Made by a program: the position numbers. Shown piece by piece: positions 3,001 to 6,000 of a DNA stretch of 8,767 nucleotides. The DNA comes from a virus (lineage: Duplodnaviria; Heunggongvirae; Uroviricota; Caudoviricetes). The stretch's first letter is position 1. Each line of letters starts with the position of its first letter. The stretch is taken from the IMG/VR virus record IMGVR_UViG_2534682078_000033. The stretch is one strand, 5' to 3'.

Positions 3001-6000
3001 GCGATTTCACCGCGCATGGCGGTTACTATGAATCCGGCGTTGCTTTCACCGTCCAGTTTTACGGATTCCATGCCTTCAATAACATCATGCGGGATCCGAG
3101 CTGTCAGTGATTGTGATTTTGCGTTTTTTGAACCTGTAGCCATCTGTAATCCTCTCAATGAAAGTGTAAGACAATATACACATAAAAAGTCTTACATAAA
3201 AGCATTGACATGTAAGCCACCTATAAATAAAGTTACTTACACCTTGTTAATGCAAGGTGCAGAAACGACGAAACCCCGCACTGTAGGAGCAGTAACGGGG
3301 CTTCTAACCACCAACGATAACGAGAGTATCGAGGTAGCTATGAGAAATCATACCACACACCCGCAAGGGCGGGACTCGCACAACCTGAATAAATACATTT
3401 GGCGTTTTATCGCCCTGAGCACTGCACAACCGCGCGTGATTACCATTGAGGCCACCAGCGAACAGGAAGCACGCCTGCAATCCCCGGCTGGCTGCGTGAT
3501 GGTATTCGCTGCCCGTATTCGTCAGGGGGTAGGCTTATGAGCCAGGAAATCACACTACAACAGGCAGCAGAACGCGCCCACCAAATCGAAGTTATTTGCG
3601 CACTGGCAGAGGATTACCCAAGCATGATGACCGACAGAGAATCAGGGGCAATCATCAGCTTACTTAAACGCCTTAGCGGTGAGGTCTGCGTATTCCTGAT
3701 CGATGAACAGGAAAGAAGAACGCTTATTTCTAACGAAAAAAATGCGGAGGGGTACATGTGCAATAAAACCACACCGGACGCAGCCGCCGCGCTCACTACG
3801 CTGATACACGCACTTATTGATATTGAATGCACGGCAGAGCTTGCGCAGGGAGAAGAACAGAAAGACCGGACACAGTTCGCCCTGGAATGTATCCGATACA
3901 TCGCAACGCGGTCGCTGAATGACGCTAAAAATATTCTTGTTGCTGATTGTGAAAATGGGGGGGGGTTATGCGTGATGATCGTTTTAATTCCCTGAAACAA
4001 GAATTTTCCGGCGTTCCTGATGATGCGGCTGATGCGCTTTCGTCAATGCCAGAACTTATTAGAGCGGCTTTTTTCTTACTTTCCACGAGAGAATATAAAT
4101 CAACGGGACTTGATGTACTGAATATCGCCGCCGATTATGCGGAATATGTGGCAGAGGCGCGTTACAGAAGAAAATTTCCTGAGGATGTAAGCCATGCGTG
4201 ATATTTATCTTGAAACAATAGACCGCGCATCACTTGCACTTTCTCACAGTGAAAACATGATGGAAATATTGCGGATGTGCCTTGAATCCTTTGGCGATAA
4301 TGAACGTAATGCAAAAAAACGCGGATTATTACATCATTAATAACGCTTCTTGAGTCTGTAATAAATGAGTTGCAGGAAATAGAGACATTGCACGACAGAT
4401 ATAACGAACAGCACACCGGAGAATAAAAATAATGAAACTTAAATATTCTGGCTTAACTGCCAGTGGCAACACTCACCCTAAATTTACGCGCGGTGATATT
4501 TACCGCGACCAGTACGGCGGCACGGTAATGATTAAGGGCGTGGCGGGACGGTGCGTAACTTACCGCCGTGAAGGTTACGAATATGATTGCGTGATGCCTG
4601 TTTATCAGTTCCGGCGTGATTTTTCTCTGGTACAGACCGCGCCGCATAACGTGCCCACCAGCAACGCCAGGGCACGGGCAAACATCCAGAAGCTGAAAAC
4701 CATGATTAACGGATTCAGGGGCAAGAAATGAAAAGCGCACCGAACTTAAAAAAACAGCCTTACGACAAGATGACCGAAGTCATCATTTTTGCGGGTAGTG
4801 ATGCGTGGGCACATGCGAAACAGTGGCAGGAACAGGACGGGCGACTGGCTGGCGATAATGTGCCTCCCGTTGTGCTGGCTGATGATCAACTGGATGAACT
4901 GGCAGACCTGAGAATCATCGACGAGGGGCGCTATTGTGTCCGGCTGTACAAGGCAGGCCACATCAGGCCATCAAATATTAATGCCATTGCGCACAAGCTG
5001 GCGGCGGCGGGTGTAACTGATGCGAATTATTACCCCGAAGGGATGCACAGCCAGAAGCGGGAGAACTGGCGCGAATATCTGGAACGGGAGCGGGGGAAAA
5101 AGCCAGGGGAAGAAAAACACCACCAGCGAAAAACCACGCTACCAATGAGCGTGGGATCTGCCGGATACGACACACAACTTGATTACGTGGTTAAGGGGAT
5201 TATTCCGGCGGTATCGCTGTGCAGCATATACGGGGCGAGCGGTTCATATAAATCGTTCCTTGCGGGTTCGTGGGCGTGTCACGTTTCCACGGGCCGCCAG
5301 TGGGGAGGCCGCAGGGTGGCGCATGGCGCTGTTCTCTATGTGGTTGGTGAAGGCGGTATCGGCGTTCCGCGTCGTGTAAAAGCCTGGGAGGTTGTGCACG
5401 GTGAGCAGGTGAAAAATCTGTATCTGGTAAACCGTCCCATCTTTCCGGCTGCCCCGCTTGATGTTGAGGAAATGGTTATCGCTGCCCGTCAGGTGGAACG
5501 GGAAACGGGTAAACCGGTTCGAATGATTATTCTGGATACGCTGGCGCGCTGCTTTGGCGGCAATGATGAAAATGATTCCCGTGATATGGGGGCGTTTATC
5601 CGTGGGTGTGACGAACTGAAACGGCGCACAGGGGCAACGGTGCTGGTGGTTCACCATTCCGGCAAGGATGAAACAAAGGGGGCGCGTGGTTCCAGTGCAT
5701 TTCGTGCATCACTGGACGCCGAATACCGGATACGCAGGGAGGACGCAGGCAGCGAAGCGCTGGTTATCTCATGTACCAAAATGAAGGACGCGGAGGAACT
5801 CAAAGAAGCAGCATATGACTTACGCGTGGTGGAGCTTTTTACCGACGCTGACGGGGAGTTAATCACGTCGCTGGTGGTGGTGGATAAGCCGCGCCCTCCC
5901 GTTGAACTGGAGCGCATCGAGGAGGCAGGGAACAAGACGGAGAATCACGCCGCGCTATGGCAGTGCATCAGAACACGAACAGCACACGGGGAGGCGTGCA

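What the first reader, a model, noticed from the sequence alone, without database searches (positions are those of the whole stretch)
3957..3965. G9 homopolymer exactly at the junction of two ORFs; one extra G would fuse them
Upstream frame (3537..3995) and downstream frame (3968..4201) are offset by one. With G10 instead of G9 the two would form a single ORF of about 221 codons ending at 4201. Runs of nine G are classic sites of slipped-strand phase variation, transcriptional slippage and homopolymer sequencing error. As written, the upstream ORF ends in a 12-residue hydrophobic tail that looks non-native.
Basis: seen in the sequence. Interest (0 to 1): 0.5.

Follow-up and report, generated by a model that had tools for sequence, protein, structure and literature searches.

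The report
Slippery poly-G joint between two satellite genes
The run of nine G's is real and sits at the joint between two small genes of an E. coli phage-satellite island; across E. coli it varies from 7 to 12 G's, so the two genes are found separate, separate with a short garbled tail (this window), or fused, which is a familiar kind of slippage hot spot and not a new mechanism.

Summary
The G9 tract (3957-3965), the two ORFs offset by one base, and the 221-codon fusion that G10 would give are all confirmed. The window is a capsid-forming PICI-type satellite of E. coli O111. It matches strain E2855 over all 8767 bases except one A in another homopolymer.

G9 is unlikely to be a sequencing error, because 146 complete genomes carry it, including E. 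coli O111:H- 11128. The tract is hypervariable. Among 650 complete genomes with this junction, exact matches number G7 356, G8 176, G9 146 and G10 23, with rare G11 and G12. Seven of 12 identical-flank haplotypes hold more than one length.

- G7 and G10 fuse the ORFs into a 145-155 aa protein (phrog_2512).
- G8 and G11 give two genes overlapping at ATGCGTGA, the arrangement seen in distant relatives that lack a pure G run.
- G9 and G12 are the least common state, with a 9-residue out-of-frame tail.

The tract encodes a Gly linker and is also the best predicted ribosome-binding site in the operon for the downstream gene, whose ORF stays intact in all three states. I found no sign of programmed recoding. 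Reversible phase variation cannot be tested here.

Verdict: a new member of a known kind, of modest interest.

The parts
3957..3965 (+). G9 homopolymer. It encodes Gly-Gly-Gly at the end of the upstream module and overlaps the predicted Shine-Dalgarno site of the downstream gene. Its length varies between strains.
   Evidence: sequence; G7-G12 in relatives; anti-SD duplex -11.1 kcal/mol, about the top 1% of window positions.
3756..3995 (+). N-module gene in its G9 state. Residues 74-139 of the ORF match phrog_5146 and the N-terminal half of phrog_2512. It ends ...ADCENGGG plus a 9-residue out-of-frame tail, LCVMIVLIP.
   Evidence: PGAP starts the homologous CDS at this ATG. Stand-alone 72-76 aa homologs were found.
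3968..4201 (+). C-module gene, 77 aa (phrog_24341, or the C-terminal half of phrog_2512), with its own ATG two bases after the tract.
   Evidence: Stand-alone 75-77 aa homologs P0134, P0141, P0150, P0159 and P0162. The same gene sits behind a different upstream gene in E. ruysiae. The ORF is intact in all 14 G9/G12 loci examined.
3968..3975 (+). ATGCGTGA start/stop overlap motif. With G8 or G11 the upstream gene stops at this TGA. The same 8-mer forms the next gene junction at 4194-4201.
   Evidence: these are the only two copies in the window; Nissle G8: the two CDS overlap by 8 nt.
3537..3755 (+). Homolog of a separate small gene (phrog_1478) that starts at the ATGA overlap with the Icd-like gene. 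In this lineage it runs in frame into the N-module gene, because of A7 instead of A8.
   Evidence: residues 2-62 match 1-61 of the 63-position profile; annotated as a separate CDS in Nissle, KY202 and MDP9-27; a non-alignable 70-aa CDS sits in that position in O157; alignment.
3736..3742 (+). A7 tract near the upstream junction. A8 in relatives keeps the two genes separate with an 11-nt overlap. A7 fuses them.
   Evidence: 51 genomes match the A7 query exactly and are annotated as one gene. About 180 others, including CFT073 and Nissle, are in the 95-99% identity band, and every one of those listed is 1 nt longer and annotated as two genes.
4194..4340 (+). Next small gene (phrog_2196 family), cut to 48 aa here by A7 at 4313-4319. 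All close relatives have A8 and a 77-aa product.
3340..3540 (+). Icd-like gene, the first gene of this run of overlapping small genes (context).
   Evidence: annotation of the identical E2855 sequence; NF033153, E 2.4e-19.
4432..6128 (+). DUF4222 gene (4432-4731) and RepA/AAA_25 helicase gene (4728-6128), which lie downstream in the same strand-wise gene run (context).

Best explanation
The G tract is a replication-slippage hot spot at the joint between two small, translationally coupled genes in the early gene run of an E. coli phage satellite (a PICI, here the capsid-forming type). It has two roles. It encodes the Gly-Gly(-Gly) end of the upstream helical module, and it is the ribosome-binding site for the downstream module, whose ATG lies two bases after it.

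Both modules keep their own start signals, so all three reading-frame states are tolerated and the locus drifts among them:
- G8 or G11: two genes with a canonical ATGCGTGA start/stop overlap.
- G7 or G10: one fused two-domain protein with a Gly linker.
- G9 or G12 (this window): two genes, with the upstream product carrying a 9-residue out-of-frame tail and its stop 28 nt inside the downstream gene.

The window's G9 is a real, inherited allele of the O111 island. It is the least common of the three states and has no stabilised (interrupted-tract) version.

Shown: the tract polymorphism, the three coding outcomes, the stand-alone homologs of each half, the intact downstream ORF in every state, and repeated length changes on identical flanking DNA.

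Inferred: that slippage during replication is the cause, that the downstream gene is translated from the G tract in every state, and that the states are functionally near-equivalent.
For: - Tract lengths among 650 complete E. coli genomes with the junction (genomes with an exact match): G7 356, G8 176, G9 146, G10 23, plus G11 and G12.
- In 80 IMG/VR loci: G7 24, G8 22, G9 10, G10 4, G11 2.
- Seven of 12 haplotypes with identical 435-nt flanks and at least two members hold more than one tract length.
- The window, E2855 and SD134209 differ across the locus only in homopolymer lengths.
- Annotation follows frame. G7 and G10 are one CDS, G8 is two CDS with an 8-nt overlap, and G9 and G12 are 'frameshifted' or two CDS.
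- Residues 74-221 of the fused form match phrog_2512 end to end (E 2.8e-63), and each half also has its own PHROG family.
- Representatives at about 50% identity or less are mostly stand-alone halves of 72-77 aa.
- In L010 the N-half gene ends at an 8-nt overlap (ATGCATAA) behind GGAGGTGGGG, not a pure G run. L011 has the same 8-nt overlap without any G run.
- The C-half sits behind another upstream gene with G6 or G9 plus TAAAC.
- Interrupted 8-mers (GGGGGTGG, GGGGTGGG) fix the two-gene frame, and GAATATGGGGTT fixes the fused frame. No fixed version of the G9 frame was seen.
- The anti-SD pairing of -11.1 kcal/mol is the best of nine gene starts in the window.
- The C-half ORF is intact in 14 of 14 G9/G12 loci.
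- In the AlphaFold model, the residues encoded at and just after the tract (71-89) have pLDDT below 50 and lie between two helical units.
Against: - Nothing here measures expression. Translation of the downstream gene from the G tract is predicted only.
- PGAP treats G9 and G12 alleles as frameshifted pseudogenes of the fused gene, and the fused form is the commonest in complete genomes.
- Genome counts are inflated by clonal sampling (O157:H7 for G7, O111 for G9).
- Some length differences between near-identical genomes could be homopolymer assembly errors.
- The 9-residue hydrophobic tail might impair the upstream module, so G9 could be a partial loss of function and not neutral.
- The function of both modules is unknown. 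There was no hit in Pfam, NCBIfam or the PDB, by sequence or by fold.
Confidence: 0.62

Rival explanations
1. The tract is a true contingency locus. It switches reversibly and often within a clone, and selection maintains it so that the satellite population always contains split and fused versions of the protein (bet-hedging, for example against different helper phages).
For: - The pure tract persists at 7-12 G in hundreds of genomes and behind two different upstream genes.
- Length changes recur on identical flanks.
- G9 and G10 both occur within the clonal O111 group, including genomes with consecutive accession numbers.
- Both flanking ORFs stay intact.
Against: - Length is largely lineage-specific: every O157:H7 genome listed has G7, and Nissle and ATCC 25922 have G8.
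- The same strain sequenced twice gives the same length: ATCC 25922 G8 twice, Nissle derivatives G8, and 2013C-3277 G9 twice.
- No state switches the downstream gene off.
- Interrupted, non-slippery versions exist.
- From my own knowledge, mismatch-repair-proficient E. coli is not known for high-rate homopolymer switching.
Confidence: 0.15
2. G9 is simply an inactivating frameshift. The native gene is the fused 148-154 aa protein, and the O111 island carries a decaying pseudogene.
For: - PGAP flags the identical sequence as 'frameshifted'.
- Fused alleles are the most numerous, and they match phrog_2512 end to end.
- The same island has two further homopolymer changes in neighbouring small genes, A7 at 3736 and A7 at 4313.
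Against: - The halves exist as independent genes in more distant relatives.
- G8 two-gene alleles are found in 176 genomes, and interrupted versions are fixed in that frame.
- The downstream ORF has its own ATG and a strong predicted SD, and it shows no further decay in 14 of 14 G9/G12 loci.
Confidence: 0.15
3. Recoding at the RNA level. On G9, transcriptional slippage (one extra G in some mRNAs) or a -1 ribosomal slip on G GGG GGG makes a fixed fraction of fused protein alongside the two separate products.
For: - A -1 shift anywhere in the run gives exactly the G10 product ENGGGVMRDD.
- The run fits the formal X XXY YYZ pattern and is itself SD-like. From my own knowledge, SD-like sequences can promote ribosome pausing and frameshifting.
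Against: - The out-of-frame layout is not conserved. Only 13 of 63 haplotype-by-tract combinations are in the G9 frame, and the rest are in frame or in the other frame.
- There is no downstream stimulatory structure (z = 0.19 and -0.97).
- From my own knowledge, the established bacterial transcriptional slippage sites are A or T runs.
Confidence: 0.06
4. G9 in this window is a homopolymer sequencing or assembly error.
For: The window's only difference from E2855 in 8767 bases is a 1-base change in another homopolymer, A7 versus A8 at 4313-4319. That means the source assembly may contain homopolymer errors.
Against: G9 with identical flanks is present in at least 36 independently sequenced O111 complete genomes, including E. 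coli O111:H- 11128, and in 146 genomes overall.
Confidence: 0.03

Closest known systems
Poly-G/C simple-sequence contingency loci of Campylobacter, Neisseria, Haemophilus, Helicobacter and Bordetella, including adjacent ORFs that a poly-G tract joins or splits (my own knowledge; surveys in PMC5084427 and PMC1891110)
   Same: An uninterrupted G run of 7-12 inside coding sequence. The length is polymorphic among near-identical strains, a change of one base alters the reading frame, and two annotated ORFs become one.
   Different: The host is E. coli, where such loci are rare, and the gene belongs to a phage satellite. No state is OFF, because the downstream module keeps its own start. Tract length looks mostly stable within clones, and no switching rate or phenotype is known.
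Translationally coupled overlapping genes of phages, with the Shine-Dalgarno site inside the upstream gene and an ATGA-type start/stop overlap
   Same: With G8 or G11 the junction is ...GGGTTATGCGTGA, with an 8-nt start/stop overlap. The same 8-mer forms the next junction at 4194-4201. A G-rich SD precedes every small gene of this gene run.
   Different: The SD has become a pure homopolymer, so the coupling register itself mutates. In this window the overlap is 28 nt, not 8.
neuO O-acetyltransferase of the E. coli K1 prophage CUS-3, which is phase-variable through a heptanucleotide repeat (my own knowledge)
   Same: Repeat-length variation in a gene carried by a mobile element integrated in E. 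coli.
   Different: neuO uses a 7-nt repeat unit at the 5' end, shows a proven ON/OFF switch and has a known phenotype. Here the repeat is a mononucleotide run at a gene joint, with no OFF state and unknown function.
Programmed -1 frameshifting or transcriptional slippage (dnaX, IS elements, Shigella mxiE; my own knowledge)
   Same: A homopolymeric slippery run at the point where two frames overlap. A -1 shift would produce the fused protein.
   Different: The frame arrangement is not conserved among homologs, no stimulatory structure was found, and the run is G and not A or T.
E. coli PICI and cf-PICI satellites (EcCICFT073, EcCIEDL933; PMC6092414; bioRxiv 10.1101/2022.09.08.507074)
   Same: The gene order matches: integrase, AlpA-type HTH, Icd-like, small genes, DUF4222, replicase, TerS and capsid, next to a tRNA gene. 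The upstream A-tract junction occurs in CFT073. O157:H7 genomes carry the G-tract junction in a matching gene run.
   Different: Text searches of one of those papers (the cf-PICI preprint) and of the EcCIMP1 paper found nothing on frameshifts at this locus; the EcCICFT073 paper was not read.

Membership tests
Simple-sequence (slipped-strand) contingency locus | Uninterrupted mononucleotide tract inside or next to a coding region | tested here: met
   G9 lies at 3957-3965, inside ORF 3537-3995 and 2 nt before the ATG at 3968.
Simple-sequence (slipped-strand) contingency locus | Tract length differs among closely related strains while the flanks are identical | tested here: met
   G9 and G10 occur on identical O111 flanks. 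Seven of 12 identical-flank haplotypes hold more than one length. G7 to G12 are seen overall.
Simple-sequence (slipped-strand) contingency locus | A length change switches a gene product ON or OFF | tested here: not met
   By sequence, the change alters only the upstream product's C-terminus or fuses the two products. The downstream ORF keeps its ATG and SD and is intact in every frame class. Expression itself was not measured.
Simple-sequence (slipped-strand) contingency locus | High-frequency reversible switching within a clonal population | not testable with these tools
   No reads or cultures are available. Indirect evidence points to modest rates, because re-sequenced strains keep the same length (ATCC 25922, Nissle derivatives, 2013C-3277).
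Programmed ribosomal frameshift or transcriptional slippage site | The out-of-frame arrangement is conserved among homologs | tested here: not met
   Only 13 of 63 haplotype-by-tract combinations share the G9 frame. 24 are in frame and 26 are in the other frame.
Programmed ribosomal frameshift or transcriptional slippage site | Stimulatory RNA structure just downstream of the slippery run | tested here: not met
   Folding of 3966-4045 and of 3920-4010 is no better than shuffles (z = 0.19 and -0.97).
Programmed ribosomal frameshift or transcriptional slippage site | The trans-frame product is detectable from a single DNA sequence | not testable with these tools
   This needs a western blot, mass spectrometry or RNA-seq.
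Translationally coupled overlapping gene pair | The downstream start codon overlaps or abuts the upstream stop, with an SD inside the upstream gene | tested here: met
   G8 alleles have an 8-nt ATGCGTGA overlap. The window (G9) has a 28-nt overlap. The SD pairing is -11.1 kcal/mol.
Translationally coupled overlapping gene pair | Each partner exists as an independent gene in relatives | tested here: met
   Stand-alone N-half proteins are P0140, P0143 and P0155, with loci L010 and L011. Stand-alone C-half proteins are P0134, P0141, P0150, P0159 and P0162, plus the E. ruysiae locus.
phrog_2512 (154-aa protein of unknown function) | Full-length match to the profile | tested here: met
   The match is met only for the conceptual G10 fusion: residues 74-221 cover 1-154 of the 154 profile positions, E 2.8e-63. 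As written (G9), the window encodes the two halves separately.
Capsid-forming PICI satellite (context) | Integrase, AlpA-type regulator, replicase, and its own TerS and capsid genes, integrated next to a tRNA gene | tested here: met
   Pfam hits are Phage_integrase, AAA_25, Terminase_2 and Phage_capsid. In E2855 the identical island lies next to tRNA-Pro and carries an HTH regulator gene. Induction by a helper phage was not tested.

The most novel reading that the evidence does not exclude
The poly-G tract, together with the A7/A8 tracts at neighbouring junctions, is a selected, reversible three-state switch carried by a phage satellite. By toggling two early proteins between separate and fused forms, it diversifies how a clonal PICI population responds to or interferes with helper phages. 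This would be a contingency locus in a satellite, in a species where such loci are rare.
Probability: 0.12. Interest if true: 0.6.

Novelty: new member of a known kind. Interest (0 to 1): 0.33.

Why it matters
- **Annotation.** The same locus is currently annotated in three ways: one gene, two genes, or a 'frameshifted' pseudogene, depending only on tract length. It also sits in three different PHROG families. Recognising the tract explains that inconsistency in hundreds of E. coli genomes.
- **Biology.** This is a natural series of split and fused versions of a two-module protein in PICI satellites. It predicts that the two modules work together, and it offers ready-made alleles for testing what these uncharacterised early genes do.
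- **Typing.** If switching proves fast, the tract could serve as a marker of recent divergence within STEC clones such as O111, and it would be a rare homopolymer contingency locus in E. coli.
- **Default reading.** If none of this holds, the site is an ordinary mutational hot spot.

Tried and rejected
- **Function from sequence.** There were no Pfam or NCBIfam hits and no PDB sequence hit for the fused protein.
- **Function from structure.** The AlphaFold model is only moderately confident (mean pLDDT 64), and Foldseek against the PDB gave nothing below E 0.9. Function stays unknown.
- **Paralogy of the modules.** BLASTP found no similarity between the N-half, the C-half and the next gene.
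- **Deposited phage genomes.** There was no match, even at distant sensitivity, which fits a satellite-specific gene.
- **Species-representative genomes.** Only two loci were returned, from Shigella flexneri and E. ruysiae, because a single-protein query reaches only close relatives.
- **Frameshift-stimulating RNA structure.** None was found.
- **Literature.** Searches on PICIs and on homopolymer phase variation in E. coli prophages found no description of this tract or gene.
- **Sequencing error as the explanation for G9.** Rejected, because many independent genomes agree.
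Full report
**1.

- The window has G9 at 3957-3965.
- ORF 3537-3995 (152 aa) ends ...ADCENGGG-LCVMIVLIP*. ORF 3968-4201 (77 aa, MRDDRFNSLKQEF...) starts two bases after the tract, in the -1 frame.
- Conceptual tract lengths give three outcomes:
  - G10 gives a 221-aa fusion reading ...ENGGGVMRDD....
  - G8 or G11 gives ...ENGGG(G)YA*, with the stop at the TGA of ATGCGTGA.
  - G9 gives the 9-residue tail.
- A single G9 in 8.8 kb is not very improbable by itself: 0.09 are expected, and 14 of 200 shuffles had at least one. The significance comes from the comparison with relatives.

**2. Context**

- The whole window matches the E. coli O111-type strain E2855 chromosome except for one base.
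- In E2855 the island lies next to yejM and tRNA-Pro. It carries, in order:
  - an integrase and an HTH regulator;
  - an Icd-like gene, then a run of small overlapping genes and DUF4222;
  - a RepA-family helicase;
  - TerS and a major capsid protein.
- This is the gene order of E. coli PICI satellites of the capsid-forming type (PMC6092414; bioRxiv 10.1101/2022.09.08.507074). Text searches of that preprint and of the EcCIMP1 paper (PMC11773190) found nothing on frameshifts at this locus.
- Deposited phage genomes have no match.

**3. What the ORFs are**

- Against PHROGs, the conceptual fusion splits as follows:
  - residues 74-221 match phrog_2512 from end to end (154 positions, E 2.8e-63);
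  - residues 74-139 also match phrog_5146 (74 aa);
  - residues 145-221 match phrog_24341 (77 aa);
  - residues 2-62 match a different 63-aa family, phrog_1478.
The protein cut by the tract starts at the ATG at 3756, where PGAP also starts it.
- In the 5.8-billion-protein search, most of the 120 hits listed are 144-155 aa, 72-97% identical, and read ...ADCEN-GG(G)V-MRDDRF... across the joint.

**4. The tract is hypervariable**

- Short junction queries against 5426 complete E. coli genomes found the joint in 650 genomes (764 copies).
- Genomes with an exact match:

| Tract | Genomes | Examples | Annotation |
|---|---|---|---|
| G7 | 356 | O157:H7, O145, O103 | one CDS |
| G8 | 176 | Nissle 1917, ATCC 25922 | two CDS overlapping by 8 nt |
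| G9 | 146 | O111 and others | two CDS or 'frameshifted' |
| G10 | 23 | some O111, 042 and others | one CDS |

- G11 (TW10590) and G12 (JNEC-KY176, JNEC-KY202) also occur.
- An independent set of 80 IMG/VR loci gave G7 24, G8 22, G9 10, G10 4 and G11 2.
- Seven of the 12 haplotypes with identical 435-nt flanks and at least two members hold more than one tract length. The tract therefore changes much faster than the 435 flanking bases.
- The window (G9), E2855 (G9) and SD134209 (G10) are otherwise identical at the locus.
- G9 is unlikely to be an error. At least 36 O111 complete genomes share it, including E. coli O111:H- 11128, NC_013364.1.
- Length is nonetheless largely lineage-specific, and re-sequenced strains agree (ATCC 25922, Nissle derivatives, 2013C-3277). 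This argues against very fast switching.

**5. Which state is native**

- A search of 1.84 billion cluster representatives found only 42 relatives. The divergent ones are mostly stand-alone halves:
  - N-half proteins of 72-76 aa: P0140 ends ENGGGYA*, P0143 ends IQEVGHA*, and P0155.
  - C-half proteins of 75-77 aa: P0134, P0141, P0150, P0159 and P0162.
- In L010 and L011 the N-half gene overlaps the next gene by 8 nt (ATGCATAA). In L010 that overlap lies behind GGAGGTGGGG, an ordinary SD and not a pure G run; L011 has no G run there. Neither locus has a C-half gene.
- In E. ruysiae and in eight IMG/VR loci, the C-half follows a different upstream gene with G9 or G6 plus TAAAC, again stopping inside ATGCGTGA.
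- ATGCGTGA occurs only twice in the window, at this joint and at the next one, 4194-4201.
- Interrupted tracts (GGGGGTGG, GGGGTGGG) fix the two-gene frame, and GAATATGGGGTT fixes the fused frame. No interrupted version of the G9 frame was seen.
- Per distinct haplotype-by-tract combination (n = 63), 26 are in the two-gene frame, 24 are fused, and 13 are in the G9/G12 frame.
- I conclude that two coupled genes are the older arrangement, that fusion is a common and tolerated derivative, and that the window's state is the off-register one.

**6. How it most likely works**

- The G tract gives the strongest predicted pairing to the 16S 3' end among nine gene starts of the window (-11.1 kcal/mol, about the top 1% of all positions). 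The downstream gene should therefore be translated independently in all three states.
- Its ORF is intact (73 or 77 aa) in 14 of 14 G9/G12 loci, in 29 of 31 two-gene loci, and in at least 31 of 33 fused loci.
- The AlphaFold model of the fused protein is of moderate confidence (mean pLDDT 64). It shows two helical units (helices 9-32 and 37-67, then helices from 75 to 141), with residues 71-89 below pLDDT 50. This fits a flexible Gly linker.
- Slippage at the tract thus moves the upstream stop among three positions without silencing either module.
- Steps shown: the polymorphism, the coding outcomes, the independent homologs and the intact ORFs.
- Steps inferred: replication slippage as the cause, independent translation of the downstream gene, and near-neutrality of the states.

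**7. Rival explanations**

- Programmed recoding is unlikely. The frame layout is not conserved, and RNA folding downstream is no better than shuffles (z = 0.19 and -0.97).
- Plain pseudogenisation of a fused gene, which is PGAP's view, cannot be excluded. It fits poorly with the stand-alone homologs and with the undecayed downstream ORF.
- True phase variation remains possible, but no reads are available to test it.

**8. The same theme at neighbouring joints**

- A7 at 3736-3742 is shared by 51 genomes, mainly O111. In about 180 genomes, including CFT073 and Nissle, the site differs, and those listed have A8. The A7 state puts the phrog_1478 gene in frame with the N-module gene. Relatives with A8 have two genes overlapping by 11 nt.
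- A7 at 4313-4319, against A8 in every close relative, truncates the next gene from 77 to 48 aa. This is the window's only difference from E2855. It is either a private slippage event or an assembly error.

**9. Comparison with known systems, and verdict**

- The site behaves like the poly-G contingency tracts of Campylobacter, Neisseria and Bordetella that join or split adjacent ORFs. It differs in host (E. coli), in carrier (a phage satellite), in having no OFF state, and in doubling as a ribosome-binding site.
- It fails two defining features of programmed frameshift sites.
- Function is unknown: no Pfam, NCBIfam or PDB match was found, by sequence or by fold.
- I rate it a new member of a known kind, with modest interest. 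It is useful mainly for reconciling inconsistent annotation and as a natural split/fusion series for two uncharacterised PICI genes.

Noticed in passing
window 4313-4319: There is an A7 run where every close relative has A8. It truncates the phrog_2196-family gene (4194-4340) to 48 aa, against 77 aa in relatives. It is also the only difference between the whole 8767-base window and E. coli E2855. It is either a private slippage mutation or a homopolymer error in the source assembly.
   Followed up: partly
window 3736-3742: An A7 run near the joint between the phrog_1478-type gene (from 3537) and the N-module gene (ATG at 3756). 51 complete genomes match the A7 query exactly. About 180 others, including CFT073 and Nissle, are in the 95-99% identity band, and those listed have A8. 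A7 fuses the two ORFs in frame, whereas A8 gives two genes overlapping by 11 nt.
   Followed up: yes
window 1732-3540 (+): An open frame of 602 codons runs across a region where the identical E2855 sequence is annotated with three minus-strand genes (one of them YlcI/YnfO family). It ends in frame with the 66-aa Icd-like gene (3340-3540). The translation is low-complexity and is probably not a real protein, but similar long ORFs were called in other assemblies (P0130, 477 aa).
   Followed up: no
window 2092-2166 and 2770-2844: A 75-nt direct repeat (83% identity) that contains a GC-rich hairpin (GCGCCGT...ACGGCGC). Each copy spans the stop-codon end of a minus-strand small gene, so these may be duplicated terminators.
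   Followed up: no
window 1465-1504: Two tandem 20-nt palindromic units (AAAAACGGTGTATACCGTTT and AAAAACGGTGAGTACTGTTT) lie upstream of the HTH (AlpA-type) regulator gene at 1571-1777. They look like paired operator sites.
   Followed up: no
L005 (O157:H7) compared with window 3756-4201: The modules are mosaic. An identical 77-aa C-module is joined to two very different N-module alleles (ECTAELAQGEEQKDR... and SVIADRAHKHATSETEYAGAF...), and the sequence around the G tract is strongly conserved. This suggests recombination at or near the joint.
   Followed up: partly
L003 (Shigella flexneri), P0069, P0116 and P0009; equivalent to window about 4067-4115: Relatives carry further frameshifted or truncated versions of the C-module. 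One set ends ...STGLMY*. Another shifts frame near the T6 run at 4067-4072, reading AAFSYFPRENINQRGLMY.
   Followed up: no
window 7068-7074: A G7 run lies directly after the stop of ORF 6904-7065 and upstream of the TerS gene (annotated start equivalent to 7193).
   Followed up: no
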